A DNA stretch of 57,682 nt. Origin: an uncultured Blastococcus sp. Its GTDB lineage: Bacteria > Actinomycetota > Actinomycetes > Mycobacteriales > Geodermatophilaceae. The translations under genes were made by a program, and so were the position numbers. Location of the stretch: contig CADCTN010000146.1 in NCBI GenBank assembly GCA_902805535.1, positions 1 through 57,682 of the forward strand, read 5' to 3'. Shown here piece after piece: positions 8,915-53,570 of this stretch. Below the pieces are notes generated by a model. That model was not told the origin of the DNA. It ran no database searches and saw only the letters and a list, made by a program, of their open reading frames with translations. How positions within the stretch are numbered: position 1 is the stretch's first letter; every line of letters starts with the position of its first letter.

Positions 8915-10512
8915 GGCGCCACCAGCGCCGGATCGGCGGGCAGCCGCGCGGTGAAGGTCGACCCACCGGCGGAGGAGGCCGTCGCCTCGCCACCCCGCCG
9001 GGTGCACAGCAGGTGGACCAGCGAGAGACCGATGCCGCGCTCCGCCGACTCCTGCTCGCCCGTCGACGGATCCTTGGTCGACATCCCGCGGCGGAACACC
9101 TCGCGCTCCATGCCGGCGGGCACGCCGGGCCCGGAATCGCGCACGACCACCTCGACCTCGCCGTCCACCAGTCCCAGGGACACCTCGACCCACCGCTGTG
9201 CGGCCATCGAGGCCGCGTCCAGGGCGTTGTCCACGAGGTTGCCGACCACCGTGGCGACGTCGGTGCTGAGCTCGTCGGCCAGCACGGGCAGGGCGGAGTC
9301 CGGCGCCACCCGCAGGTCGACGCCGAGCTCGGCGGCCTGGCTGGCCTTGGCGATGAGCAGCGCGGCGATCGACGGGTCGCGCACCGCCGCGGTGACGTCC
9401 GCGCTGAGCTCGGAGCGGCTGGAGCTGACCCGGTGCACGAACCGCACGGCCTCCTCGGCCTCGCCCAGCTCGATGAGGCCCGCGATCGTGTGCAGCCGGT
9501 TGCTGAACTCGTGGGCCTGCGCCCGCAACGTGTCGGTCACGTGCCGGGTGAGGTCCAGCTCGCGGCGCAGCTCGAGCAGCTCGGTGCGGTCCCGCAGCGT
9601 CGTCACCGACCCGATGAGCCGGCCCTTGCTGGTGATCGGCAGCCGGTTGACGACGAGCACCCGGCCCGCGCTCGCCACCGCGCGGTCCCGCTCCACCTCC
9701 CCGGACAGGAACGCGTCGAGGATCTCCGTGCTCACGCCCAGCTCGACGAGGGTCCGGCCGAGCGCGTCCCCCGGGATGTGCAGCAGGCGGATCGCCTCGT
9801 CGTTGATCAGCGTCACGCGGCCGCGCAGGTCCAGGCCGACGACGCCCTCGCGGATGCCGTGCAGCATCGCGTCCCGGTGCTCGACCAGCCCGGTGATCTC
9901 GGCCGGCTCCAGGCCGAGGGTCTGCCGCTTCACCCGCCGGGCCACGAGCAGCGAGCCGACGATGCCGATGGCGCTGGCCAGGCCGAGGTAGGTGAGCAGG
10001 TTGGGCGCCGCCGCGGCCAGCCCGTCCAGCACCGACGGGTAGACCCGGGTGACGACGACGAACCCCGCGGCCTGCCGCCGCGGCCCGTTCAGCACCGGGA
10101 CCATCGCCACCGCGGCCGGGCTGCCGTCGAACTCGCGCTCCCCCTCCCAGGCCCGCCCCGCCAGGACCGTGCTGTCCCCCACGGGGATCCGGTCGCCCAG
10201 CTGACCGGGGTCCTCGCTGGCGATGACGGTGCGGTCGATCAGTGCCACCACGACCGACGCGGAGTCCGAGACGCTGCGGGTGCTCTCGGCGGCGACCCGC
10301 ACGTAGGCGACCCCGCCCTCGTCCACCGCCTCGCGGAAGATCCGCGCGTTGGCCAGCGTCTCGGCCACCGCCAGGGCCCGTCGTCCCTCGGTCGCCTGCG
10401 CCCCCTTCGTCGTCTGGGCCACCGTCACCGCCGCCACGCCCACCAGCACGACGCAGACGATGACCACCTGCAGGGCGAGCAGCTGGCCGGCGAGCGAGAG
10501 CCGGCGGGTCAC
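8911..10512 (-). CDS. CitA/DcuS-type sensor histidine kinase
   Basis: Two TM segments, sCache-like region, PAS, LRAQAHEFSNRLH H-box, GNLVDNA, DSGPG, RGIGL. Confidence 0.93.
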   Translation of the reverse strand: MTRRLSLAGQLLALQVVIVCVVLVGVAAVTVAQTTKGAQATEGRRALAVAETLANARIFREAVDEGGVAYVRVAAESTRSVSDSASVVVALIDRTVIASEDPGQLGDRIPVGDSTVLAGRAWEGEREFDGSPAAVAMVPVLNGPRRQAAGFVVVTRVYPSVLDGLAAAAPNLLTYLGLASAIGIVGSLLVARRVKRQTLGLEPAEITGLVEHRDAMLHGIREGVVGLDLRGRVTLINDEAIRLLHIPGDALGRTLVELGVSTEILDAFLSGEVERDRAVASAGRVLVVNRLPITSKGRLIGSVTTLRDRTELLELRRELDLTRHVTDTLRAQAHEFSNRLHTIAGLIELGEAEEAVRFVHRVSSSRSELSADVTAAVRDPSIAALLIAKASQAAELGVDLRVAPDSALPVLADELSTDVATVVGNLVDNALDAASMAAQRWVEVSLGLVDGEVEVVVRDSGPGVPAGMEREVFRRGMSTKDPSTGEQESAERGIGLSLVHLLCTRRGGEATASSAGGSTFTARLPADPALVAP

Positions 10513-40200: not shown

Positions 40201-43200
40201 ATGGAGAGCACTGCCGACATCCAGGTGGGCGACGTCCTCGCCCCGCGGGCGGCGGTCTCCATCGAGATCACGTCCACCCCCGTCCTCAGCTACGCCCTGG
40301 CCCACAACCGGATCCCGGTCGTGTCGCGGCTCGCCCTGACCAACGACGGCGGCCCGGTCCGGGCGGCCGTCGTCCGGCTGGGCATCCGCGACGCCGAGGG
40401 TCCGATCGCCCAGACCGTCGAGCTGCTGGCCGACCTCGACGAGGGCCGGACGACGGTCCTCACCGATCTCGGCCTGGTCATGGACGCCGCCGCGATGCTG
40501 CACGTCGAGGAGCAGCGGCCCGGCGTCATCGAGGTCGAGGTGCTCACCGACGGTCCGGACGGCGAGCGGCAGGTGCTCGGGGAGAGCAGCCGCGTCGTCC
40601 AGGTGCTCGCCGCCCAGCAGTGGCTGGCCACTCCCCTGCCGCTGGCGCTGGAGATGCTCGCCGCCCACGTGCTGCCCAACCACCCGGCGATCACCGCGGT
40701 GGTCGGCGAGGCGGCCGGGGTCCTGGAGGAGCGGACCGGCCGCGGCTCGATCCAGGCGTACGCCGACGGGCCGGAGCGGGTCGACGAGATCGTGTCCGCC
40801 GTCGCCGCGGTGCTGCAGCGCCGCGGGATCCGCTACAGCGAGCCGCCGACCAGCTGGGCCGACCTCGGCCAGCAGGTGCGCTCGCCGGGCGACGTCCTGA
40901 CCTGGCGCGTGGGCACGCCGCTGGACACCGCCGTCGTCATGGCGGCCGCGCTGGAGCAGGCCGGCATCCGGCCGCTGCTGTGGCTCGCCGACGGGTCGGC
41001 GGCGACCGGCGGGCGGGCCGGGGGCAGCGGGGCCTTCCTCGGCTACTGGCGCGAGGAGCGCAGCGCGGAGAGCGCCGCCACCACCGACGCCGCTCCGCTG
41101 GTCAACCTGGTCGACCTCGGCCTGATCGGCCTGGTGGACACCACCCTGCTGACCAGCATGGGCGAGCCCGGTGCCGACCTGCACACCCCGGCCTACACCG
41201 GCTGGCTGACCGGTGAGCTCGACCGGATCCTCGGCGTCACCGACGTGCACCGGGCGCGCAAGGACGGCATCTTCCCGCTGCCCGCCCGGGCCCGCGACGA
41301 GGACGGCGTCCTGCAGGTCGTGGAGTACCGGCCGGCGCTGCACAGCGCGCCGGCGAAGCCCGTGCCGCCGGTCCCGGCGCCGTCGTCCCGCCCGGAGGCG
41401 CCGCCGCGGGTGCAGCAGTGGAAGAACGCGCTGCTCGACCTCAGCCTGCGCAACCGGCTGATCAACTACACCGAGCGCTCCGGGCTGGCGCTGACGATCC
41501 CGCCCACGTCGCTGGGCGCGCTGGAGAACTTCGTCCACGACGGGACGCCGATCACCCTGCTGCCGGGCGACCAGCTGGCCGCCGTGCAGGCCGAGCGCGG
41601 GATCACCTCGGCGAGGGACCTGCCCCCCGAGCAGCTCACCGCGCTGCTGGTGGAGCGGCGCGAGGTGCACGCCGACGTCACGAGCGGCAACTACCTGCCC
41701 AAGCTGCGCAACGTCGCCTACAAGGCGAAGACGGTGCTCGAGGAGACCGGCGCCAACAACCTCTACCTGGCGCTCGGCAGCCTGGTCTGGGAGCTCGACG
41801 GCCGGCCGCTGCGCAGCCCGCTCGTCCTCATCCCCGTCGTCCTGGCGCCGCTGGGCGCCACCGGCTCCTACCGGCTGTCGCTCGACGACTCCGGCTCCAG
41901 CACGCCCAACTACTGCCTGCTGGAGAAGCTCCGCCAGCTGCACGGCCTGACCGTCCCGACGCTCACCGAGGCCGTCGACGGCACCCTCGACCTCGACGCC
42001 GCGTTCGAGGCGATGCGCTCGGCGCTGGTCGGGCACGGGCTGCCCTACCGGGTGGAGTCGACGGCGGACCTGGCGATCCTGCAGTTCGCGAAGTTCCGGT
42101 TGTGGAAGGACCTCGACGAGCACTGGTCGGACTTCGCGGACAACCCGCTGGTCTCCCACCTGGTGCACGAGCCGACCGAGGCATTCCAGGACGCGGCCCG
42201 CGACACCGCCCCCTACGTCGACCTCGACGAGCTGGCCGCCGAGCTGCCCGCGCCCGCCGACGCCTCGCAGCTGCGGGCCATCGCCGAGGCCACCGCCGGC
42301 CGGACGTTCGTCCTCGAGGGCCCACCCGGGACCGGCAAGTCCCAGACCATCACCAACCTGCTCACCCGCGCGGTCGCCGAGGGCAAGCGGGTGCTGTTCG
42401 TCGCCGAGAAGCGGGCCGCGCTGGACGTCGTCGCGCGGCGGCTGGACTCGGTCGGCATGGGCATGTTCGCCCTCGACCTGCACGACAAGGGCTCGCGCGC
42501 CTCGATGGTGCGGGCGCAGATCCGGCTGGCGCTGGAGCACGCGGTCTCCGTCGACGAGCAGGGCCTGGCCGCCGACGGCGAGTCGCTGCGCTCGGCCCGC
42601 CGGATGCTGGCGCGCTACGCCGACCGGCTGCACGCCGAGAACGCCGTCGGGTTGTCGCTGTACTCGGCGCGGACGTCGCAGCTGGCGTCGGGCACCGAGG
42701 TGGACCCGCTCCCGGTGCCCATGCCGTTCGTGGCCAACGCCCCGGCCGACGTGCTGCGCTCGGTGCGCGTGGAGCTGGCGCTGCTCCCCGACATCGCCGA
42801 CCTGACCCGGCCCTCGCCTCGCCACCCGTGGGCCTTCGTCGACTCCCCCGACATCGACCTCCCCGCCACCCGGGCCGCCGCGGCCGAGGTCGACGAGGCC
42901 GTGCGGGAGGCGCAGGCGGTCCCCGAGCTGGCCGGCGTGCTGCGTCGGGCGCGGACCGCCGGTGACCTCGACGCCCTCGCGCACGTGCTGAGCGGCCCGC
43001 AGATCGGTCTGGACGTCATCGACGAGACCTTCGGTGCCTTCTGGACGGCGGCCACCTCGGCGGTCCTCGGCGAGCTGGCGGCCTTCACCGCCTTCCGCCA
43101 CCCGGGCCTGGACGTCTGCGCCCCCGAGGTGCTCGCGCTGCCGCTGGCCGAGATCTACGTGGCCGCGCAGACCGCGGCGGCGTCGTCCTGGTGGGGCCGC

Positions 43201-46131
43201 CGGCGGCGGCTGATCGCCGTCCGCGACCACCTCGAGCCCTACCTGCGCCCCGAGGCGACGGTGCGGCCCAAGGACGTCCCGGCCGTCGTGGAGAACCTCT
43301 GGCGGGTGCAGACAGCGGTGCAGGCGATCGCCAGCCGGGCCGGCTCCATCTCCGGCCTCGCGGTGCCCGAGGGCTGGAACCCCTTCCTCGACGGCGAGCT
43401 GCTCGCCCGCCAGGTGCAGTGGCTGCGGCAGGCCGGCGCGGCCGTCGACGGTTCCACGACCTTCCACGTCCAGCTCCGCAAGCTCATCGTCGCCGGGCTC
43501 CCGTCCGGTCCGGCCGCGGCCGCGGCGGTGACCCGCCTGCGCGACGCCGTCACCCAGCTGATCGCGGCGGGCCGGACCAGCTCCGACCAGCTCGCCGCGT
43601 GGGCCGGTGACGACGGCATCGTCTTCCGGTGGTCGATGACCCGGCCCGAGCGCGGGGTGGACAGCCTGATGTCGCTGCGCCGCTGGGTCACCTTCCTGGA
43701 CACCCTGGAGCCCCTCCGTTTCGCCGGGCTCTTCGACGCCCGCGCCCTGCTGCTGACCGGTGCGATCAAGGCCGACGACGCCGTGCGCGCCCTCGACCAC
43801 GGCCTGGCGACGGCCTCGGTCACCGAGCGGCTGGACGCCGCCGGGCTGGACATGTTCGACGCCGGGGCGCACGAGAAGGCGATCCGCCGGTTCACCCGCG
43901 CCTCCCGGTCGGTGCGCGAGCACCTGACGACGGCGCTGCCCGCGAAGGTCCTGTCCACCCGGCCCTTCGACGCGGCCTCGGGCTCCGGCCAGGTCGGCGC
44001 CCTGCAGCGGGAGCTGGCCAAGCAGCGCCGCGGGCTGGGCGTGCGGCAGCTGCTGGCGCAGTACGGCGAGCTGATCACCCAGGTCATGCCGTGCGTGCTG
44101 GTGTCGCCGGACTCGGTGGCCCGGTTCTTCCCCGCCGTCTCCGGCCTGTTCGACCTCGTGGTGTTCGACGAGGCCTCGCAGATCCGCGTGGCCGACGCCG
44201 TCGGTGCGCTGGGCCGTGCCCGCGCGGCGGTCGTGGTCGGTGACTCCAAGCAGATGCCGCCGACGTCGTTCGCCGAGCCGTCGTCGGTGTCCGACGACGC
44301 CGCGGACCTCGCCGAGACCGCCGTGGAGGACGAGGAGTCGATCCTCTCCGAGTGCGTGCAGGCCCGGGTGCCCCGGCAGTGGCTGTCGTGGCACTACCGC
44401 AGCCAGGACGAGTCGCTGATCGCGTTCTCCAACGCCCAGTACTACGGCAACCGGCTGTCCTCGTTCCCGGCGCCCACGCACGGGCGGCCCTCGTCGGAGC
44501 CCGACGGCCGCGGGGTCTCGCTGGTCCGGGTGCCCGGGACGTTCCACCGATCGGGCGCCGGGCGGCTGCTGCGCACCAACCCGATCGAGGCCAAGGCGAT
44601 CGTCGCGGAGATCCGCCGGCGCTTCGACGCGGTGCCCAAGTGGGACGGCATCGACGCGGTCCCCTCGATCGGCGTGGTCACCTTCAACGCCCAGCAGCGC
44701 GCCTACATCGAGGCGCTGCTGCGCGACGCCGACGACGAGCGGCTGGCCCAGGCGCTGGACCGCGCCGACGGCGAGGGCCTGTTCGTGAAGAACCTGGAGA
44801 ACGTCCAGGGCGACGAGCGCGACGTCGTCTTCTTCTCCACCGGCTTCTCCCCCAACGCCGCCGGCGACCTGCCGCTGAACTTCGGGCCGCTCAACCGGGT
44901 GGGCGGCGAGCGGCGGCTCAACGTCGCGGTGACCCGGGCCCGGCGCCAGGTGGTCGTGTTCTCCTCGTTCGACCCGGAGCAGCTGCGGGCCGAGGAGACG
45001 TCGTCGGTCGGCATCAAGCACCTGCGGGCCTACCTCGACATGGCCGCCCAGGGCACCGACGTGCTGCCCCGCGACGCCCGCGCGGCGACCGTGGTGGACC
45101 GGCACCGCGAGCAGATCGCGGCCGCCCTGCGCGACCGCGGGCTGGTGGTGCGGACCGACGTCGGCCTCTCGGAGTTCAAGGTCGACCTCGCCGTCGCCCG
45201 CGCCGACGACCCGGAGACGCCGCTCATGGCGGTGCTCCTCGACGGCCCCGCGTGGGCCCGCCGCGGCACCGTGGGCGACCGCGACGGCCTGCCGGTCGAC
45301 GTGCTGGGCGACATGCTGCGCTGGCCGATCGTGGAGCGGGTGTGGCTGCCCTCGTGGCTGGCCGCGCCCGGCGCCGTCGTGGACCGGCTCGTGGAGGCGG
45401 TCGAGGCGATGCCGTCGACCCCCGTCGCCCCGGTCATCCAGCTGCCGACCGCGGCGCAGGAGTCGTTCAAGGGCGTCGCCGCCCTGCGGTCCTCGGTGAC
45501 GGCGTCGGTCGCCGTTCCCGCCGCGCCTGCGCGGCCGGCCCCCGAGGCAGCGCCCGCGCGGAAGCCGTCGGGCCCGGCGGCGATGGACGGCGAGACGCCG
45601 TTCGTGCCGTGGCTGCCCAAGCCGGCCGGTGAGAAGTCGCTGCTCGACGAGCTGCCCGCGTCGAAGGCGGCCCGGCCGGTGCGGCGGGTGCTGGCGGCCG
45701 GCATCAAGGCCGAGGGCCCGATCCACGTCGACCGGCTGGCCAAGCTGACCGTGAACGCGTTCGGGCTGAACCGGGCCTCGGAGGGCCGCAAGAACACCCT
45801 GCTGTCGCTGCTGCCGCCGTCCGCGGTCGTCGGTGACCACCTGTGGCCCGAGGGCGTCTCCCCGGACACCTACACCGGCTTCCGGCGGCAGACCGCGAGC
45901 ACCGACCGCCCGATCGACCACGTCGCGCCGGAGGAGATCGGCAACGCGATGGCGGCACTGTGCCGGGCGAGCGCCGGGATGATGGCCGAGGAGCTGCTCA
46001 CCCAGACGGCGGCGATCTTCGGCTACAAGCGCCGCACCCCGGCCATCACGCCCCCGCTCGAGGCGGCGCTGAAGCTGGCCCTCCAGCGCGGCCGCCTGGT
46101 CGAGCAGCCCAACGGCCTGCTGACCGTCTGA
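40201..46131 (+). CDS. DUF4011 / SF1 (Upf1-like) helicase / Vsr-like REase / DUF3320-type multidomain protein, 1976 aa
   Basis: WKNALLDLSLRNRLIN, GPPGTGKSQT, FDEASQ, GDSKQMPP, WHYRS, ENVQGDERD, RRLNVAVTRAR, KVDLAV..LDG. Confidence 0.92.
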   Translation: MESTADIQVGDVLAPRAAVSIEITSTPVLSYALAHNRIPVVSRLALTNDGGPVRAAVVRLGIRDAEGPIAQTVELLADLDEGRTTVLTDLGLVMDAAAMLHVEEQRPGVIEVEVLTDGPDGERQVLGESSRVVQVLAAQQWLATPLPLALEMLAAHVLPNHPAITAVVGEAAGVLEERTGRGSIQAYADGPERVDEIVSAVAAVLQRRGIRYSEPPTSWADLGQQVRSPGDVLTWRVGTPLDTAVVMAAALEQAGIRPLLWLADGSAATGGRAGGSGAFLGYWREERSAESAATTDAAPLVNLVDLGLIGLVDTTLLTSMGEPGADLHTPAYTGWLTGELDRILGVTDVHRARKDGIFPLPARARDEDGVLQVVEYRPALHSAPAKPVPPVPAPSSRPEAPPRVQQWKNALLDLSLRNRLINYTERSGLALTIPPTSLGALENFVHDGTPITLLPGDQLAAVQAERGITSARDLPPEQLTALLVERREVHADVTSGNYLPKLRNVAYKAKTVLEETGANNLYLALGSLVWELDGRPLRSPLVLIPVVLAPLGATGSYRLSLDDSGSSTPNYCLLEKLRQLHGLTVPTLTEAVDGTLDLDAAFEAMRSALVGHGLPYRVESTADLAILQFAKFRLWKDLDEHWSDFADNPLVSHLVHEPTEAFQDAARDTAPYVDLDELAAELPAPADASQLRAIAEATAGRTFVLEGPPGTGKSQTITNLLTRAVAEGKRVLFVAEKRAALDVVARRLDSVGMGMFALDLHDKGSRASMVRAQIRLALEHAVSVDEQGLAADGESLRSARRMLARYADRLHAENAVGLSLYSARTSQLASGTEVDPLPVPMPFVANAPADVLRSVRVELALLPDIADLTRPSPRHPWAFVDSPDIDLPATRAAAAEVDEAVREAQAVPELAGVLRRARTAGDLDALAHVLSGPQIGLDVIDETFGAFWTAATSAVLGELAAFTAFRHPGLDVCAPEVLALPLAEIYVAAQTAAASSWWGRRRRLIAVRDHLEPYLRPEATVRPKDVPAVVENLWRVQTAVQAIASRAGSISGLAVPEGWNPFLDGELLARQVQWLRQAGAAVDGSTTFHVQLRKLIVAGLPSGPAAAAAVTRLRDAVTQLIAAGRTSSDQLAAWAGDDGIVFRWSMTRPERGVDSLMSLRRWVTFLDTLEPLRFAGLFDARALLLTGAIKADDAVRALDHGLATASVTERLDAAGLDMFDAGAHEKAIRRFTRASRSVREHLTTALPAKVLSTRPFDAASGSGQVGALQRELAKQRRGLGVRQLLAQYGELITQVMPCVLVSPDSVARFFPAVSGLFDLVVFDEASQIRVADAVGALGRARAAVVVGDSKQMPPTSFAEPSSVSDDAADLAETAVEDEESILSECVQARVPRQWLSWHYRSQDESLIAFSNAQYYGNRLSSFPAPTHGRPSSEPDGRGVSLVRVPGTFHRSGAGRLLRTNPIEAKAIVAEIRRRFDAVPKWDGIDAVPSIGVVTFNAQQRAYIEALLRDADDERLAQALDRADGEGLFVKNLENVQGDERDVVFFSTGFSPNAAGDLPLNFGPLNRVGGERRLNVAVTRARRQVVVFSSFDPEQLRAEETSSVGIKHLRAYLDMAAQGTDVLPRDARAATVVDRHREQIAAALRDRGLVVRTDVGLSEFKVDLAVARADDPETPLMAVLLDGPAWARRGTVGDRDGLPVDVLGDMLRWPIVERVWLPSWLAAPGAVVDRLVEAVEAMPSTPVAPVIQLPTAAQESFKGVAALRSSVTASVAVPAAPARPAPEAAPARKPSGPAAMDGETPFVPWLPKPAGEKSLLDELPASKAARPVRRVLAAGIKAEGPIHVDRLAKLTVNAFGLNRASEGRKNTLLSLLPPSAVVGDHLWPEGVSPDTYTGFRRQTASTDRPIDHVAPEEIGNAMAALCRASAGMMAEELLTQTAAIFGYKRRTPAITPPLEAALKLALQRGRLVEQPNGLLTV

Positions 46132-46228: not shown

Positions 46229-46334
46229 TCACTCGGCCCCGGCCGGGTAAAGGAGCTGCGCGGTTCCGGTGGTCCCTGTTGACTGCACCGGCTGCGCAGC
46301 ACCCCTGACCACCTCGGAGCGAATCGAAAGGACG

Positions 46335-47498
46335 ATGGAGAAGATCAACGGACGCCTGCTGAGCTGGGCGTCGATCCTGGAGGACACCACCCGCGAGCAG
46401 GCCGAGCGCACCGCCGCGATGCCGTTCATCCACCCGCACCTGGCCCTGATGCCCGACGCCCACCTCGGGATGGGTGCGACCGTCGGCTCGGTCATCCCGA
46501 CCGACGGCGCGATCATCCCGGCCGCAGTCGGCGTCGACATCGGCTGCGGGATGATCGCCGTCCGCACCCAGTTCACCGCCGAGGACGTCGCCGGGCGCGA
46601 CCTGGCCGTGCTGCACGGGCAGATCTCGCGGTCCATCCCGCTGTCGGCCGGTGGCCGGAACCAGAAGATCCGGGCGAGCGCGGAGCCGCGGATCGCCGAG
46701 CTGCGCGAGCTGCCCGGCGCGTCGCAGGCCGACGCCGCGGTGGCGCACTGGCCGCAGCAGCTGGGCTCGCTGGGCTCGGGCAACCACTTCATCGAGCTCT
46801 CGCTCGACGAGGAGGACCGGGTGTGGCTGTTCCTGCACTCCGGCTCGCGCGGTGTCGGCAACAAGCTCGCGCAGAAGCACATCCGGATCGCGCAGGAGCA
46901 GTGCCGTCGGCGGCACATCCAGCTGCCCGACCGCGACCTCGCCTACCTGGTGGAGGGGGAGCCTGAGTTCGACGCGTACATCGAGGCGCTGCGGTGGGCG
47001 CAGCGGTTCGCCTACCTCAACCGCGAGGAGATGATGGACCGCTGCGTCGACCAGCTGGGCCGTTTCTCGGGCACCGAAGTCGAGCGGGCCGAGACGGTGA
47101 ACTGCCACCACAACTACACCGAGCGGGAGCGGCACTTCGGCCGCGAGGTGTGGCTGTCGCGGAAGGGTGCGATCTCGGCGCGGGAGGGCGAACCGGGCCT
47201 CATCCCCGGGTCGATGGGGACGGCGTCCTACGTCGTCGTCGGCAAGGGGAACGTGCCGTCGCTGATGTCGTCGCCGCACGGCGCGGGCCGGAACTTCTCG
47301 CGCTCGGCTGCCCGTAAGCGGTTCACGCGTACGGACCTGGACGCGCGGATGACCGGCATCGCGTGGGGGCACTCGGACGCTTTCCTGGACGAGCACCCCG
47401 ACGCGTACAAGCCGATCGACCAGGTCATGGCCGACGCCGCCGACCTGGTCGAGGTGCGGCACACGCTGCGCCAGATCGTCAACGTCAAGGGCGACTGA
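46335..47498 (+). CDS. rtcB: RtcB RNA ligase
   Basis: MPDAH, VGVDIGCG, GSGNHF, HSGSRG, HHNY, PGSMG, HGAGR, YK; AAAGGA RBS. Confidence 0.95.
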   Translation: MEKINGRLLSWASILEDTTREQAERTAAMPFIHPHLALMPDAHLGMGATVGSVIPTDGAIIPAAVGVDIGCGMIAVRTQFTAEDVAGRDLAVLHGQISRSIPLSAGGRNQKIRASAEPRIAELRELPGASQADAAVAHWPQQLGSLGSGNHFIELSLDEEDRVWLFLHSGSRGVGNKLAQKHIRIAQEQCRRRHIQLPDRDLAYLVEGEPEFDAYIEALRWAQRFAYLNREEMMDRCVDQLGRFSGTEVERAETVNCHHNYTERERHFGREVWLSRKGAISAREGEPGLIPGSMGTASYVVVGKGNVPSLMSSPHGAGRNFSRSAARKRFTRTDLDARMTGIAWGHSDAFLDEHPDAYKPIDQVMADAADLVEVRHTLRQIVNVKGD

Positions 47499-47539
47499 TC
47501 ACCGGTCCGGCGTTCCCCAGCGGAACGCCGGACCGGTGA
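47499..47539. terminator. 18-bp stem-loop after rtcB
   Basis: TCACCGGTCCGGCGTTCC / GGAACGCCGGACCGGTGA. Confidence 0.75.
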
Positions 47540-47601
47540 CCGGCTCCTGTCCCACCTGCTCCGTACCGTCCCCACCCACGCACCGAGTCCTGAGGAGAAC
47601 C

Positions 47602-48699
47602 GTGTCCACCGCCGACCCGCCGTCCGATCGCGGCGTGCGGCCCGTCGTCCACCTGCACCAGGCGGACGACCTCGCCACCGCGCTGCTGGTGCGCGCCCAG
47701 TGGGACGACGGGATGCCCTACCTCCGGACGGCGGAGGTACCGGGGACGATCGACGACCCGCAGCAGTTGCTGCCCGACGGCGTGGTCGTCCGGCTGGACC
47801 AGCAGAGCGACCGCGGCGAGCGGACGCTCGTCGCCGGCTCGCCCGACCGGCTCATCAGCCTCGCCGTGGCCGACGGGGTGACGCGGGTGTCGGTCGTCGG
47901 CACGGACCTGGCGTCCGTCGAGGCGCTCCTGACGCGGATCTCGGCAGCGGCGAGCGAGCGCGTCGTGGAGGTGGAGGGCTCGCTGCGCATGGGGTTCTGG
48001 TCCTACGGCGACGGGTTCGGCCAGATGTCGACGCGGCGGGTGTCCGCTCCGACGTGGTCGGAGGCGTCCGGCAACTACGCGCGACGCACCGCCGACGGGC
48101 TGGCGGCGCTGATGCCGCTGACCGGGGTCGACAGCCGGGCCGGGCGCCTGGTCCTGTGGCACGGGGAGCCGGGAACGGGAAAGACCACTGCCGTGCGGGC
48201 GCTGAGCCGGGAGTGGGCGGGCTGGTGCCGGCCGCACTACGTCATGGACCCGGAGAAGCTGTTCGCCGAGCCGAACTACCTGCTGGAGGTGGCCGGCGCG
48301 CACGGCGACGACGACGAGCGCGACGACGGTCGCTGGCGCCTCGTGGTGGCCGAGGACTGCGACGAGTACCTGCGTACCGACGCCAAGCTCCGCTCGGGCG
48401 CCTCGCTGGGCCGGCTGCTCAACCTGTGCGACGGGATCCTGGGGCACGGTCTGAAGGTGCTCGTCCTGCTCACCACGAACGAGGAGGTCGGCCGGCTGCA
48501 CCCGGCGATCACCCGCCCCGGGCGATGCCTGAGCCAGGTGGAGTTCGAGCCGTTGTCCCCCGCCGAGGCCCGCACCTGGCTCGGCGGTGCGGCGGCCGCC
48601 CCGGAGGGGCCGGTCACGCTCGCCTCGCTCTTCGCGCAGCGCGAGCAGCGCGTGGACGTCGGCGACCGTCGGACGCCGGACCTGGGCGGCTACCTCTAG
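47602..48699 (+). CDS. AAA ATPase (DUF5925-like)
   Basis: GEPGTGKT, VVAEDCD, LLNLCDG, RPGRC; GAGGAG RBS. Confidence 0.85.
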   Translation: MSTADPPSDRGVRPVVHLHQADDLATALLVRAQWDDGMPYLRTAEVPGTIDDPQQLLPDGVVVRLDQQSDRGERTLVAGSPDRLISLAVADGVTRVSVVGTDLASVEALLTRISAAASERVVEVEGSLRMGFWSYGDGFGQMSTRRVSAPTWSEASGNYARRTADGLAALMPLTGVDSRAGRLVLWHGEPGTGKTTAVRALSREWAGWCRPHYVMDPEKLFAEPNYLLEVAGAHGDDDERDDGRWRLVVAEDCDEYLRTDAKLRSGASLGRLLNLCDGILGHGLKVLVLLTTNEEVGRLHPAITRPGRCLSQVEFEPLSPAEARTWLGGAAAAPEGPVTLASLFAQREQRVDVGDRRTPDLGGYL

Positions 48700-48703
48700 C
48701 CGC

Positions 48704-50917
48704 TCAGGACCGGGCGATGCCCACCAAGGTGACGTCGTCGATGTCGGGCGGGTCGATGGCGGTGAGGACGGCGTCGAGCAGCGCCTGCGGCTCGGCCGGC
48801 GCGAGGCGGACGACCTCCCGCAGCGCCTCGAGCCCCGCGGCCAGGCCGTTGCGGCCCCGCTCGACCAGGCCGTCGCTGTAGAGCAGCAGCCGGTCCGCAC
48901 CGGCCAGCCGCACGCGGGTCTCCCGGTACCCGGCGGCGTCCAGCAGCCCGAGCGCCGGCCCCCGCCCCTCGGCCAGCAGGTGCGTACCCGTCGACGTCAC
49001 GTGCAGTACCGGCAGGTGACCGGCGTTGGCGACGACGACCTCGCCGGTCGCCGGGTCGAGCTCGACGACGACGGCCGTGGCCATCTCGCCGGGCAGCAGC
49101 GCGGCGATGACCTCGTTCAGCCCGTCCAGCGCGACGCCCGGCCCGGACGCGCGCAGCAGGTGGGCCCGCAGCGCGTGGCGCAGCTGCGCGGTGATCGAGG
49201 CGGCCGCGAGGCCGTGGCCGGCGACGTCGCCGAGGACGATCGACACCCGGCCACCGGGCAACGGCACCAGGTCGTACCAGTCGCCGCCGACGACGTCCTC
49301 GGCGCTGGCCAGGTAGCGGGCGGCGAGGGCGAAACCGGGGACCGTGGGCAGCTCCTCCAGCAACAGCGTGCGCTGCAGGGCCGTGGCCAGGCGGTTGTCC
49401 TCCGCTGCCCAGCTCAGCGCCGCGTCGGTGAGGGCGGCCGCGAGCGTGCGGGCGGCGGCCACCTCGTGCTCCCGCCACGGCTGCGCGGTCTCGCGGACGG
49501 TCTCGCTCCACGCGTCGAAGGAGCGGCGGGGGCTCAGCCGCGGGCCGTCGTCGGTCTGCGTCGTCTTGGACAGGTGCGGGTTGCCCGCCCAGGCGACCTC
49601 GCGCACGGTCTCGGGCCGGAACCAGGCCAGGAAGTCGTCTCCGCCGACGGGCACGACGAGCGCTCCGCTGGCGGTGCCGGCCAGGTCCGCGGCGGAGGGG
49701 ACGGCGCGGCTGACGGCGTCGGTGACCGGGGCGCCGGCCGCGAGCAGCGCGCTCACCAGCGGACCGACCCGCTCGGCCGGCGGTGTCCGGCCGAGCAGCC
49801 GCAGCTGCCGGTTGATCCGCACGGCGACGCCCCCCGCGGGGATCAGGTCCAGCGCGGTCACCGGGCCGTCGGTGAGCACCGCGGCCAGCTCCCGCGGGGT
49901 GCGGCCGACGACGGCCGCCAGCTGCGCCTGCCGCTGCGCCACCTCCACCACGCCGCTCTGCTCGCCGGCCGCCACCTTGGTGTGCAGCAGCAGCGACGCC
50001 GTCCGGCCGAGGAACTCCGCCGCGGTGCGGTCGGCGTAGGCGGGCCGGTGGGCCCCGGCGTAGTGGTGGCAGGCGATGAGCCCCCACAGCCGGCCACGGT
50101 CGATCAGCGAGATCGACATGGAGGCGCGGACGCCCATGTTGGCCAGGTACTCCAGGTGCACCGGCGAGACGCTGCGCAGCATCGCGCCGGAGAGGTCGAG
50201 CGGGCGACCGGTCAGCGGGTGGGCGGCCGGCTCGAGCGGGACCCGCCGGTAGGCGGCGTCGGGGATCAGCCGCATCCAGTTCGTGGCGTACAGGGCGCGC
50301 GCCTGGGCGGGGATGTCGCTGGCCGGGTAGTGCAGGCCGAAGAACGGCTCGAGGTCCGCGCGGCGGTCCTCGGCGACCACCTCGCCGTTCCACTCGGCGT
50401 CGAAGCGGTAGACCATCACGCGGTCGAAGCCGGTGAGGGCACGGACGTCGCGGGCCAGCACCTCGGTGAGGTCGTCGAGGGTCGCGGCCGCCGAGAGCCG
50501 CTGGAGCACCGTCGGCAGCCGGCGGTGCCAGGCGGCGCCCGCCTGCTCGGCGCCCGGAACCGGCTCCCACTCGGTGAGCAGCAGCCCGTCGGCGCGGTGC
50601 ACGACCAGGTCGACCGGCTCTCCGGCGACCTGCACGCGGATCGGGTCGACCTCCGTCAGGCCTTCGGCGAGGCCGTCGGTCAGCCGGGCCAGGTCGGCGT
50701 CGCCGAGCACCTGGTCGAGGGCGTCGACCGGGCGGCCGAAGAACCCGGTCGCGTTGGCCGACGCCATGACGACGGCCAGGTCGGGCTCGGTGACGGCGAG
50801 CAGCACCCCGTGCGGCTGGACCGCACCCGGGATCGCGATCGGCTCGTCGGCGCAGCGCAGCAGCGCTTCCTCGGGGACGGTGCGGAGGGCGGCGTCGGGC
50901 GGGCTGCGGTCGCTCAC
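48704..50917 (-). CDS. Bacteriophytochrome (PAS-GAF-PHY) fused to SpoIIE/PP2C phosphatase
   Basis: C22 in CADEPIAIPGAVQPHG, DRVMVYRF, PASDIP, SPVHLEYL, PRRSF; GGDWYD, GDVAGHG, NAGH, SDGLVE, DDVT. Confidence 0.95.
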   Translation of the reverse strand: MSDRSPPDAALRTVPEEALLRCADEPIAIPGAVQPHGVLLAVTEPDLAVVMASANATGFFGRPVDALDQVLGDADLARLTDGLAEGLTEVDPIRVQVAGEPVDLVVHRADGLLLTEWEPVPGAEQAGAAWHRRLPTVLQRLSAAATLDDLTEVLARDVRALTGFDRVMVYRFDAEWNGEVVAEDRRADLEPFFGLHYPASDIPAQARALYATNWMRLIPDAAYRRVPLEPAAHPLTGRPLDLSGAMLRSVSPVHLEYLANMGVRASMSISLIDRGRLWGLIACHHYAGAHRPAYADRTAAEFLGRTASLLLHTKVAAGEQSGVVEVAQRQAQLAAVVGRTPRELAAVLTDGPVTALDLIPAGGVAVRINRQLRLLGRTPPAERVGPLVSALLAAGAPVTDAVSRAVPSAADLAGTASGALVVPVGGDDFLAWFRPETVREVAWAGNPHLSKTTQTDDGPRLSPRRSFDAWSETVRETAQPWREHEVAAARTLAAALTDAALSWAAEDNRLATALQRTLLLEELPTVPGFALAARYLASAEDVVGGDWYDLVPLPGGRVSIVLGDVAGHGLAAASITAQLRHALRAHLLRASGPGVALDGLNEVIAALLPGEMATAVVVELDPATGEVVVANAGHLPVLHVTSTGTHLLAEGRGPALGLLDAAGYRETRVRLAGADRLLLYSDGLVERGRNGLAAGLEALREVVRLAPAEPQALLDAVLTAIDPPDIDDVTLVGIARS

Positions 50918-50927
50918 CGCGGGGAGG

Positions 50928-51293
50928 TCACGGGCGGGCTTCCCGCTCCGCCGAGGCGGCGGGGATCTCGGCGGCCGACGCCACGATCGGCACCACGGCG
51001 CCCAGCTCGAGGAGATCGATCGTGAGCCGCACGGCGCTGTTCTCGTGCGGCGCCACCACGTGCAGGGCGACGCCCGCGGCGGCGGCCTTCCGCGCGACGC
51101 GCACGAGCTCGCGGGCCCCGGAGGAGTCCATGAAGGCCGTGGGCGTCAGGTCGAGCACCAGTGATCGTGGCGGCGGGCTCAACTCGCCGTCGACGGCCTG
51201 CGCGAGTACCGGAGCGGTCGCCAGGTCCAGCTCACCCCGTACGGTGAGAGCCGGTCGCCCCGCGACCGACCCCCGTTCCATGGCGAACAGCAA
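50928..51293 (-). CDS. STAS anti-anti-sigma factor (RsbV-like)
   Basis: GELDLATAP, LDL..FMDSSG phospho-Ser motif; GGGAG RBS before TTG. Confidence 0.9.
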   Translation of the reverse strand: MLFAMERGSVAGRPALTVRGELDLATAPVLAQAVDGELSPPPRSLVLDLTPTAFMDSSGARELVRVARKAAAAGVALHVVAPHENSAVRLTIDLLELGAVVPIVASAAEIPAASAEREARP

Positions 51294-51367
51294 CGAATCG
51301 GCTCCCTCGCAGGCTGCGGCAACTCAGCGCAGCCTAACGGCACCGGTTCCGAGAGGAGGAAGCTGCC

Positions 51368-51796
51368 ATGAAGGTCGACTTCACCGTCCGGCTACCGGTC
51401 GACGCGCAGAGCCTCCCCCTGATCCGCGGGCTGGTCCGCCAGACGCTGCAGCACCTCGGTGTCGTCGCCGGTGGCATCGACGAGATCCTGCTGGCGCTGA
51501 GCGAGGCGTGCGCGAACGTCGTCCAGCACGCCGGTGAGCACGACGAGTACCAGGTCGACGTCTCGATCGACGACTACGTGTGCCGGGTCAGCGTGCTCGA
51601 CGACGGCGGCGGCTTCGACGTCGCCGCCGTGAGCGCCGAGCGGCCGCGCTCGCCGCTGGACGGCGGCCGGGGGCTGCTGCTCATGCAGGCACTGGTCGAC
51701 CGGCTGGCGTTCGTGCAGGACGAGGACGGCCGGCACCGGGTGTTCCTGGAGAAGCGGCTGGTCACCTCCCCGAAGCTCCGGCTGCTGCCGACCTGA
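51368..51796 (+). CDS. RsbW-like anti-sigma Ser kinase (HATPase_c_2)
   Basis: SEACANVVQH, DDGGGF, GGRGLLLM..LVD; GAGGAGG RBS. Confidence 0.9.
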   Translation: MKVDFTVRLPVDAQSLPLIRGLVRQTLQHLGVVAGGIDEILLALSEACANVVQHAGEHDEYQVDVSIDDYVCRVSVLDDGGGFDVAAVSAERPRSPLDGGRGLLLMQALVDRLAFVQDEDGRHRVFLEKRLVTSPKLRLLPT

Positions 51797-51840
51797 CCCG
51801 ACCTCCGGTGCTCCCTGCGGGTGTCGGCGAGGATGTCCCC

Positions 51841-53100
51841 GTGACGACCGACGCCGCCGCGTTCCGCACCGAGGTCCAGGAGGCCGGTCGCCGGCTGGCC
51901 GGGATCGCCGAGCGGACGCCGCTGCAGCGCAACGCCCGGCTCTCGGCCCTGACCGGTGCCGACGTCTGGCTCAAGCGGGAGGACCTGCAGGTCGGCCGCT
52001 CCTACAAGATCCGCGGCGCCTACAACACGATCAGCCGGCTCTCCCCCGATGCCCGCGCCGCCGGCGTCGTCTGCGCGAGCGCCGGGAACCACGGGCAGGG
52101 CGTGGCGTACGCGTGCCGGGCGCTGCAGGTGCGCGGGCGCGTCTTCGTGCCCGGGACGACGCCGCGGCAGAAGCGCGAGCGGATCGCCTCGCTCGGCGGC
52201 GACATGGTGGAGCTGGTGGTGGTCGGCGACTCCTACGACGAGGCGGCCGCCGCCGCGCTGGCCCACGCGCTCGGGTCCGGCGCCACGCTGGTGCCGGCGT
52301 TCGACGCGCTGCCCACGGTGACGGGTCAGGCGACGGTCGCGGTCGAGATCCTCGAGCAGCTCGGGTCGGCTCCGGACGTCGTCGTCCTGCCGGTCGGCGG
52401 TGGCGGGCTGCTCGCCGGCTGCGGGACCTGGCTGCGCACCGCCGCCCCCGGCACCCGGCTGGTGGGCGTGGAGCCCGCGGGTGCGGCGAACATGGCCGCC
52501 GCCCTGGCCGCCGGTGAGCCGGTCGAGCTGCCGGAGATGGACACGTTCGTCGACGGCGCCGCCGTCCGCCTGGCCGGGGCGCTCACCTATCCCCTGATCC
52601 GCGACTCCGGTGCCGAGCTGCTCGCCGTCCCCGAGGGGCAGATCTGCACCGAGATGCTGGAGCTGTACCAGACCGACGGCATCATCGCCGAGCCTGCCGG
52701 GGCGCTGTCACCGGCGGCGGTCAGCGGCGGGCTGGTCACCGTCGAGCCCGGCCAGACCGTCGTCTGCCTGCTCTCCGGCGGCAACAACGACGTGAGCCGG
52801 TACGCCGAGGTGGTGGAGCGGTCGCTGGTGCACCGGGGGCTGAAGCACTACTTCCTGGTCGAGTTCCCGCAGGAGCCCGGTGCCCTGCGCCGGTTCCTCG
52901 ACGAGGTGCTCGGGCCCGACGACGACATCGTGCTGTTCGAGTACATGAAGCGGGACAACCGGGAGACCGGTGCCGCGCTCACCGGCATCGAGTTGGGTAC
53001 CGCGGCCGGCCTCCCCGGGCTGCTGGAGCGGATCGAGGCCAGCCCGCTGCGGATCCAGCACGTCACGCCGGGGACGACGGCCTACCGGTTCCTGGTGTAG
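51841..53100 (+). CDS. ilvA: Threonine ammonia-lyase (short form)
   Basis: KREDLQ..SYKIRGA, SAGNH, PVGGGGL, SGGNND, FPQEPGAL. Confidence 0.95.
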   Translation: MTTDAAAFRTEVQEAGRRLAGIAERTPLQRNARLSALTGADVWLKREDLQVGRSYKIRGAYNTISRLSPDARAAGVVCASAGNHGQGVAYACRALQVRGRVFVPGTTPRQKRERIASLGGDMVELVVVGDSYDEAAAAALAHALGSGATLVPAFDALPTVTGQATVAVEILEQLGSAPDVVVLPVGGGGLLAGCGTWLRTAAPGTRLVGVEPAGAANMAAALAAGEPVELPEMDTFVDGAAVRLAGALTYPLIRDSGAELLAVPEGQICTEMLELYQTDGIIAEPAGALSPAAVSGGLVTVEPGQTVVCLLSGGNNDVSRYAEVVERSLVHRGLKHYFLVEFPQEPGALRRFLDEVLGPDDDIVLFEYMKRDNRETGAALTGIELGTAAGLPGLLERIEASPLRIQHVTPGTTAYRFLV

Positions 53101-53111
53101 CCGGGCCTCGT

Positions 53112-53570
53112 TCAGTCCTCGATGACGTCGCGGCTCTGCGCACGCAGCTCCGCCAGGGAATCGAGCATCCCCTGCAGGACCTCCGGGCTGTGCCCCCGCC
53201 AGTCGTCGACCTCGCCGACCACCCGCAGCGGGCGGCGGGACCGGTAGGACTGCGTGGGGTTTCCCGGGAACCGCTTGTCGGTCACGTTCGGGTCGTCCTC
53301 GAAGGGCCCCAGGGGCTCGACGACGTACACCCGCCCGCGCTCGCCGTTCCCGGCCAGCGCCGTCGCCAGCTCCGCTCCCCAGACGGCCGTCTCCAGGACC
53401 GCGGTGAAGTAGACGTTGTTCGACACCCGGCCCGCCTGGAAGTTGGAGCCGCGGCCGGCGACCAGCTCGTCGCCGGGCTCCAGCGCGGACGCCGTCCCGT
53501 GGAAGAAGGGTCCCTCGACGTGCGCGCAGTGCTCGTAGGTCACGGGCACGCGCGCCCCGTCGTCGTCCAT
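53112..53570 (-). CDS. arr: Rifampin ADP-ribosyltransferase
   Basis: PFFHGT, VYFT, WGAELA, FEDDPNVTDKRFPGNPTQSYRS. Confidence 0.93.
   Translation of the reverse strand: MDDDGARVPVTYEHCAHVEGPFFHGTASALEPGDELVAGRGSNFQAGRVSNNVYFTAVLETAVWGAELATALAGNGERGRVYVVEPLGPFEDDPNVTDKRFPGNPTQSYRSRRPLRVVGEVDDWRGHSPEVLQGMLDSLAELRAQSRDVIED

What the first reader, a model, noticed from the sequence alone, without database searches (positions are those of the whole stretch)
48704..51796. Red/far-red light input to a partner-switching cascade: phytochrome-PP2C + STAS + RsbW
Seen: a complete photosensory core (N-terminal Cys22, DIP motif, SPVH His, PRxSF tongue) is fused to an intact PP2C domain instead of the usual histidine kinase. 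It lies 10 nt downstream of a STAS gene (FMDSSG), and that pair is divergent from an RsbW-like kinase. Known: RsbU/RsbV/RsbW modules control SigB/SigF-family sigma factors, and an N-terminal Cys marks biliverdin-binding bacteriophytochromes. Inferred: this is a self-contained light-controlled switch in which the phosphatase dephosphorylates STAS, STAS sequesters RsbW, and a stress sigma factor is released. No heme oxygenase or sigma gene is in the window, so both must be supplied in trans.
Basis: partly seen in the sequence, partly recalled or inferred. Interest (0 to 1): 0.88.

Follow-up and report, generated by a model that had tools for sequence, protein, structure and literature searches.

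The report
Red-light phosphatase with its phospho-switch partners
This soil actinobacterium carries a gene that fuses a red/far-red light sensor (phytochrome) to a protein phosphatase, kept beside a small switch protein and a kinase in most relatives that have the gene; together they likely let light turn a phosphorylation switch that would feed the stress sigma factor SigF encoded elsewhere in the genome, a wiring I found in no paper and have not tested.

Summary
Observation confirmed. 48704-50917 encodes PAS-GAF-PHY-SpoIIE(PPM). All bilin-pocket residues and phosphatase aspartates checked are invariant in 76 of 76 homologues, and the PHY-to-PPM linker has the same length in 75 of 76. Among 122 genomes of the family, the STAS gene occurs in exactly the 71 that carry this phytochrome type, always directly upstream. 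The divergent kinase is adjacent in 62 of 71 and not found in the other 51 genomes. The triplet recurs in Nocardioides and Egibacteraceae. A Pfam-weak haem oxygenase lies elsewhere in this genome, and one is present in all 111 phytochrome-bearing genomes. The unit is not self-contained: the single SigF has its own UsfX-like anti-sigma factor that lacks kinase motifs. So the neighbour is more likely a dedicated kinase, as RsbW2 is in Mycobacterium smegmatis. Best reading (0.45): light, phosphatase, STAS, UsfX, SigF. The output step is inferred by analogy only. The fusion is already listed in one paper (M. gordonae). I found no paper on its activity or partners. The scan noted a blue-light analogue before, not this system.

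The parts
48704..50917 (-). Bacteriophytochrome-PPM phosphatase (PAS2-GAF-PHY-SpoIIE), 737 aa; Cys22, D201, H254, Y257, PRRSF 463-467; PPM Asp 546/549/564/682/727/728; predicted single helix 483-518 from PHY to PPM
50928..51293 (-). Single-domain STAS protein (anti-anti-sigma type), 121 aa from TTG, phospho-acceptor-position Ser57 in FMDSSG
   Evidence: (D56-S57 in 48 of 48 orthologues)
51331..51336 (-). Conserved TAnnCT hexamer (TAGGCT here), likely housekeeping -10 element for the STAS-phytochrome transcript
   Evidence: (41 of 42 intergenic regions)
51368..51796 (+). RsbW/SpoIIAB-like GHKL serine kinase, 142 aa, with intact N box (E46, N50, H54), G1 (D78-x-G-x-G) and G2 (G100-x-G102)
   Evidence: these residues invariant in 19 of 19 aligned

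Best explanation
The locus encodes a phytochrome-phosphatase fusion, a STAS protein and an RsbW-like protein with intact kinase motifs, which likely form a light-set phosphorylation switch whose dephosphorylated STAS would bind the UsfX-like anti-sigma factor encoded elsewhere and so release SigF. Steps: (1) The haem oxygenase at G000:C78 likely makes biliverdin, which is predicted to attach to Cys22. The genes and residues are shown; binding is inferred, about 0.93. (2) Pr/Pfr conversion likely changes phosphatase activity through the fixed-length helix 483-518 in a dimer; inferred, about 0.8. (3) The neighbouring kinase likely phosphorylates STAS Ser57 and the phosphatase removes the phosphate; inferred from strict co-inheritance, about 0.85. 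(4) The neighbour is likely a kinase only, like M. smegmatis RsbW2, and unphosphorylated STAS would capture the UsfX-like protein of the usfX-sigF operon (G000:C53); inferred by analogy, the weakest step. My guess at the sign is red light on, SigF on (about 0.6, not counted in the confidence).
For: Chromophore and metal-site residues invariant in 76 of 76 homologues; PHY-Trp481 to PPM-Gln515 distance 34 aa in 75 of 76; one predicted helix 483-518, mean pLDDT 87.7. Coiled-coil linkers activate PPM dimers in RsbU (PMC12143880, passages). STAS orthologue in 71 of 71 type-A genomes and 0 of 51 others; kinase orthologue in 67 of 71 (68 with the diverged adjacent copy in G107) and 0 of 51. Same divergent triplet in L157, L158 (Nocardioides) and L172 (Egibacteraceae), and a co-oriented order in L154-L156. 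A haem oxygenase is present in 111 of 111 phytochrome genomes against 1 of 11 without by the bphO query, and is kept in 16 of 16 genomes whose only phytochrome is this type. Exactly one SigB/F/G match in 118 of 122 genomes. The protein encoded upstream of sigF best matches mycobacterial anti-sigma-F RsbW (8IH8) and lacks the N-box Asn and DxGxG in 17 of 17. M. smegmatis uses this division of labour: RsbW2 kinase, RsfB, RsfR phosphatase, RsbW1, SigF (PMC7693655 abstract and Discussion; PMC10950880 abstract).
Against: No sigB/F/G gene was seen beside the triplet in the 20 wider (8-15 kb) type-A loci searched, and SigF is found whether or not the triplet is there, so co-occurrence says nothing on the output. 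The sigF region already has its own RsfB-like STAS (FLGSAG) and a SpoIIE-kinase-STAS fusion. The genome holds 11 SpoIIE and 7 STAS matches. The neighbouring kinase keeps Arg20, which aligns with the RsbW arginine I recall as needed for sigma binding (alignment; role recalled). Three type-A genomes lack the kinase (G024, G033, G109). Outside the family, 17 of 27 named fusion loci have no STAS within 4 kb. Related genomes are not independent observations.
Confidence: 0.45

Rival explanations
1. Same light-set STAS switch, but the output is not a sigma factor: STAS or the freed kinase acts on another protein, such as a diguanylate cyclase or another enzyme.
For: No sigB/F/G gene near the triplet. 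In L102 the triplet lies next to a PAS-GGDEF gene. Published partner switches with enzyme outputs exist (search listings only: PMC13555669 glycosyltransferase, PMC5085249 HsbD). The kinase carries a conserved C-terminal P-x-LRLL/V tail of unknown use.
Against: No conserved fourth gene was identified, though flanks of type-A loci were searched only for STAS, kinase, haem oxygenase, SigF and UsfX. A complete UsfX-SigF module that lacks its own kinase activity is present in 39 of 41 genomes sampled.
Confidence: 0.2
2. One reading: the neighbouring RsbW-like protein is both kinase and anti-sigma factor and holds SigF itself until dephosphorylated STAS captures it.
For: Its only solved relative is B. 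subtilis RsbW (6M36, E 5.9e-8), and its best NCBIfam hit is RsbW, though far under the cut-off (45.9 of 145 bits). Arg20 is invariant.
Against: SigF already has an adjacent UsfX-like anti-sigma. The neighbour is not found in 51 family genomes, 50 of which have a SigF match. In M. smegmatis the kinase-motif-bearing, non-sigF-linked homologue does not bind SigF (PMC7693655 Discussion).
Confidence: 0.15
3. The phytochrome binds bilin but light barely changes the phosphatase (haem/oxygen status or apo/holo state is the real input), or the real substrate is another STAS protein of the genome.
For: No activity data exist. There are 7 STAS matches in the genome. The paralogous type-B fusion and many outside homologues have no adjacent STAS.
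Against: The tongue motifs (WxG, PRxSF, WxE) and linker length are conserved. STAS is gained and lost with this phytochrome type in 122 of 122 genomes.
Confidence: 0.15

Closest known systems
Mycobacterium smegmatis SigF partner-switching system (RsfR phosphatase, RsfB, RsbW2 kinase, RsbW1/UsfX, SigF; PMC7693655, PMC10950880)
   Same: Sensor PPM phosphatase, STAS and kinase clustered away from a usfX-sigF operon whose anti-sigma lacks kinase motifs.
   Different: The input there is a receiver domain set by a histidine kinase reading respiration; here it is a phytochrome core fused directly to the phosphatase. The STAS here has the FMDSSG motif, not the RsfB-type FLGS motif, and an RsfB-like gene exists separately.
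PAS-GAF-PHY-SpoIIE bacteriophytochrome of Mycobacterium gordonae (KQH76073), listed in PMC9587094 Fig. 2 and Supp. Table 5
   Same: Same domain architecture.
   Different: In the passages I saw it is only a tree leaf, with no activity, partners or gene context.
Bacillus subtilis RsbU/RsbP-RsbV-RsbW-SigB
   Same: PPM with an N-terminal sensor and helical linker, STAS with the conserved Ser, GHKL kinase.
   Different: No linked sigma gene here; kinase and anti-sigma roles are probably split. Light input in Bacillus and Listeria runs through the LOV-STAS stressosome protein (recalled; listing PMC3019169), not a phytochrome.
Biliverdin bacteriophytochromes (SaBphP1/2, DrBphP, Agp1) and phytochrome-activated diguanylate cyclases
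   Same: Photosensory core 35-41% identical, N-terminal Cys, fixed-length output helix, haem oxygenase co-occurrence.
   Different: The output is a Ser/Thr PPM phosphatase instead of a histidine kinase or GGDEF domain.

Membership tests
Biliverdin-binding bacteriophytochrome | PAS-GAF-PHY core | tested here: met
   fold matches with TM by target up to 0.90
Biliverdin-binding bacteriophytochrome | N-terminal Cys, DIP Asp, pocket His/Tyr, PRxSF tongue | tested here: met
   C22, D201, H254, Y257, H284, PRxSF in 76 of 76; aligned to SaBphP1 6BAP
Biliverdin-binding bacteriophytochrome | Haem oxygenase available in the genome | tested here: met
   G000:C78:20709-21299; HemO 1J77 hit E 2e-6 with proximal His and EGSxLG aligned; Atlas 0.96 to biliverdin-producing haem oxygenase; Pfam score 20.5, under the cut-off of 23
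Biliverdin-binding bacteriophytochrome | Covalent bilin binding and Pr/Pfr photoconversion; resting state | not testable with these tools
   needs spectroscopy
PPM/SpoIIE phosphatase | Metal-site aspartate motifs | tested here: met
   D546, D549, D564, D682, D727, D728 invariant in 76 of 76; Pfam SpoIIE 139.6 bits
PPM/SpoIIE phosphatase | Dephosphorylates a STAS phosphoserine | not testable with these tools
   only genomic linkage
Partner-switching module | PPM + STAS with conserved Ser + GHKL kinase with N/G1/G2 boxes, inherited together | tested here: met
Bacillus-type RsbV-RsbW-SigB operon | Kinase/anti-sigma encoded with its sigma factor | tested here: not met
   sigF lies on another contig behind a different anti-sigma; no sigF match in the 20 wider type-A loci
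Mycobacterium-type SigF partner switch | usfX-sigF gene pair with an anti-sigma lacking kinase motifs and an upstream SigF-type promoter | tested here: met
   GTTT-N-GGGTA motif upstream in 24 of 25 loci
Mycobacterium-type SigF partner switch | This STAS binds the UsfX-like protein and the kinase does not bind SigF | not testable with these tools
   needs binding assays

The most novel reading that the evidence does not exclude
A dedicated red/far-red switch, widespread in Geodermatophilaceae and scattered across Actinomycetota, in which a phytochrome directly gates a Ser/Thr phosphatase that sets the general-stress sigma factor SigF. It would be a natural red-light-controlled PPM phosphatase and a direct phytochrome input to a partner-switching cascade, neither of which my searches found described.
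Probability: 0.45. Interest if true: 0.78.

Novelty: new variant of a known kind. Interest (0 to 1): 0.6.

Why it matters
Most characterised bacteriophytochromes signal through histidine kinases or c-di-GMP enzymes (own knowledge). Here the sensor, substrate, opposing kinase, chromophore supply and candidate sigma target can all be named in a family with cultured members, so 'does red light set the actinobacterial general stress response?' becomes a five-protein in vitro experiment. It also offers a direct test of the proposal that helical linkers from exchangeable sensors control PPM phosphatases (PMC12143880), and a candidate red-light-switchable phosphatase for optogenetics.

Tried and rejected
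Complex prediction of the STAS with the UsfX-like protein: score 0.00, verdict 'no answer', counted neither for nor against. Pfam PF01126 found no haem oxygenase in the own genome and only 51 of 122 in the family; this was a sensitivity miss, corrected with a protein query. SigF control of the locus itself: the intergenic TACCCT reads GGGTA on the other strand in 22 of 42 loci, but the variants keep TAnnCT and break GGGTA, so it was rejected as a SigF promoter. A shared special promoter for the STAS operon and bphO: both have C-TAnnCT-CG, but 22 of 186 gene-proximal TAnnCT sites in the genome do too, many before housekeeping genes; rejected. A carotenoid output: crtI (C1:25259) has a SigF-like motif nearby but on the opposite strand; no support. 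The genome-wide SigF motif count was 18 against about 10 expected, too weak to define a regulon. The careful PPM tree timed out; a FastTree was used instead. Bathy versus canonical state was not resolved; the top solved relatives are mostly Pr-state structures, a weak hint only. Sequencing-run tools were not used.

Full report
Observation. The 737-aa ORF at 48704-50917 (-) has PAS_2, GAF, PHY and SpoIIE domains over their Pfam cut-offs. The STAS ORF (50928-51293, -) ends 10 nt before it and the HATPase_c_2 ORF (51368-51796, +) starts 74 nt away on the other strand. The best named homologues are from Blastococcus and Geodermatophilus (88% to B. haudaquaticus, top 120 of 4604 hits listed). The genome is 84.9% complete in 242 contigs.

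Are the parts intact? I aligned 76 full-length fusions: 48 of this type (A), 10 of a paralogue (B) and 18 from other families. Duplicates, one frameshifted locus and the unpublished G152 were left out. Cys22, D201, Y170, R248, H254, Y257, H284, W443, PRxSF and W470 are invariant, as are PPM D546, D549, D564, D682, D727 and D728. The distance from the last PHY Trp to the PPM 'LQR' Gln is 34 residues in 75 of 76 and 49 in one. AlphaFold2 on a 61-row alignment gives one helix over 483-518 (monomer, pLDDT 87.7, pTM 0.65). STAS D56-S57 is kept in 48 of 48 orthologues, and the Ser is also invariant across 11 aligned STAS proteins of 21-35% identity. The kinase keeps E46/N50/H54, D78-x-G-x-G and G100-x-G102 in 19 of 19.

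Do they belong together? Of 122 family genomes, 111 have a phytochrome-PPM fusion (21 and 18 match rows not listed). From those tables I counted 71 genomes with type A (64-100% identity; split or truncated in G014, G036, G050). The STAS orthologue is in the same 71 and in none of the other 51, directly upstream in all 71 by coordinates. The kinase orthologue is in 67 of the 71 and none of the 51, plus a diverged adjacent copy in G107. It is adjacent and divergent in 62, displaced 3-8 kb in five and on another contig in one, and not found in G024, G033 and G109. These genomes are kin, so this is not 71 independent events. Better evidence comes from distant taxa. Among 79 named loci, 27 are actinobacterial matches that reach into the PPM domain; the rest were sensor-only or partial matches and were dropped. 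Ten of the 27 have an adjacent STAS, six also a kinase, five an upstream haem oxygenase, and 17 have no STAS within 4 kb. Pfam confirmed the 7 STAS and 4 kinases submitted; of the 2 oxygenases one passed the cut-off and one scored just under. The same divergent layout occurs in Nocardioides aquiterrae (L157), a Nocardioides MAG (L158) and an Egibacteraceae MAG (L172), and a co-oriented phytochrome-STAS-kinase order in L154-L156. In a class-wide sample, 31 of 401 genomes matched at E<=1e-70, not all over the full length (the count includes unpublished G152, whose locus I do not otherwise rely on).

Chromophore supply. Pfam missed the haem oxygenase in this genome. A protein query found it at C78:20709-21299, 78-80% identical to the G030 copy, with HemO as solved relative and an Atlas score of 0.96. 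In most relatives this gene lies directly upstream of the type-B phytochrome (10 of 12 loci fetched). In this genome, G030 and G024 the type-B gene is missing from that spot but the oxygenase stays. It is present in 16 of 16 genomes whose only PHY match is type A. Of 111 phytochrome genomes, 105 have it and the other 6 have a canonical haem oxygenase. Only 1 of 11 phytochrome-less genomes has it; most of those 11 are fragmented and one, G074, is unpublished. This is good indirect evidence that type A uses biliverdin.

Output. The genome has one SigB/F/G over cut-off (C53:5152-5823), and 118 of 122 family genomes have exactly one match. Directly upstream is an RsbW-fold gene whose best solved relatives are mycobacterial anti-sigma-F proteins (8IH8, 8JZT). 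It lacks the N-box Asn and DxGxG in 17 of 17 orthologues, is found in 39 of 41 genomes sampled, and has a GTTT-N-GGGTA motif upstream in 24 of 25 loci. In M. smegmatis, RsbW1 is the anti-SigF, RsbW2 is a kinase that does not bind SigF, RsfB is the STAS, and RsfR is the sensor-controlled PP2C (PMC7693655: abstract and Discussion read; PMC10950880: abstract). The triplet here maps onto RsfR-RsfB-RsbW2 with a phytochrome as the sensor. This is analogy. No sigF match lies near the triplet in 20 wider loci. The sigF region has its own RsfB-like STAS and a SpoIIE-kinase-STAS fusion, and the genome has 11 SpoIIE and 7 STAS matches. PPM enzymes are reported to be highly substrate-specific (PMC11418112, abstract), which fits a private STAS but does not name its target.

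Mechanism and odds. Biliverdin binding 0.93; light control of the phosphatase through the linker helix 0.8 (precedent for linker control in PMC12143880, passages, where 'phytochrome' does not occur); kinase and phosphatase acting on STAS Ser57 0.85; output through UsfX to SigF 0.45 overall; non-sigma output 0.2; neighbour as direct anti-sigma 0.15; light or this STAS not the true input or substrate 0.15.

What is known. The architecture is in print: PMC9587094 draws PAS-GAF-PHY-SpoIIE in Fig. 2 (passages) and lists one example, M. gordonae KQH76073 (supplement search). Searches for phytochrome+SpoIIE (6 papers), bacteriophytochrome+phosphatase+PP2C (5), phytochrome+phosphatase+PPM+biliverdin+coiled-coil (1), phytochrome+Blastococcus (0) and three broader sets (20 of 39, 30 of 314 and 40 of 103 listed) showed no paper on the activity, partners or distribution of this fusion; I saw those only as listings. 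The library lacks most subscription journals, where phytochrome domain surveys may list the fusion, and bioRxiv supplements were closed. No phytochrome-PPM structure appeared among the 60 of 107 PDB sequence hits shown or the fold hits shown. ESM Atlas holds three clusters of 51-83 members with this architecture, automatically named.

Verdict. Real, intact, conserved and apparently unstudied. It works like a partner switch of the mycobacterial SigF kind with a new sensor; it is not a Bacillus-type rsbVW-sigB operon. All parts are known kinds and the fusion has been listed once, so this is a new variant, interest 0.6.

Noticed in passing
L045-L047, L049-L055 (e.g. G063:C51:26767-29028): A second family-wide phytochrome-PPM paralogue (type B, 40-46% identical) sits behind the haem oxygenase without STAS or kinase. 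Its sensor groups with outside homologues, but its PPM domain (GDVVGHD) nests among non-phytochrome PPM paralogues, suggesting an output-domain swap (quick trees).
   Followed up: partly
G000:C78:20709-21299 (L056): BphO/HemO-like haem oxygenase that scores under the Pfam cut-off; a family scan undercounts it (51 against 106 of 122 genomes).
   Followed up: yes
L057:6758-8692 (G000:C53): SpoIIE-HATPase_c_2-STAS fusion divergent from usfX-sigF, with an RsfB-like STAS gene at about 9870-10225.
   Followed up: partly
window 51770-51793: The kinase ends in a conserved P-x-LRLL/LRLV tail (18 of 19 aligned); a docking or degradation signal is a guess.
   Followed up: no
G000:C103-class note: family genus g10 (G091, G096, G103-G106): Six genomes with a phytochrome lack the bphO-type gene and have a canonical haem oxygenase instead.
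   Followed up: partly
L102:3278-7981; L091:482-5879: Outside the family, one triplet lies next to a PAS-GGDEF gene, and one fusion lies between a sigma-70 r2/r4 gene and a GGDEF-EAL gene.
   Followed up: no
G014:C5:29149-31318; L104: Phytochrome-PPM genes split in two frames (frameshift or assembly error).
   Followed up: no
window 40201-46131 (+): 1976-aa ORF with a P-loop (GPPGTGKS) and DEASQ motif, looks like a large SF1 helicase; not scanned.
   Followed up: no
window 46269-47498, 47536-48699, 51580-53100, 53112-53570: Neighbours: RtcB ligase, DUF5925-AAA ATPase (convergent with the phytochrome), threonine dehydratase, and a rifampin ADP-ribosyltransferase family gene. No link to the switch was tested.
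   Followed up: no
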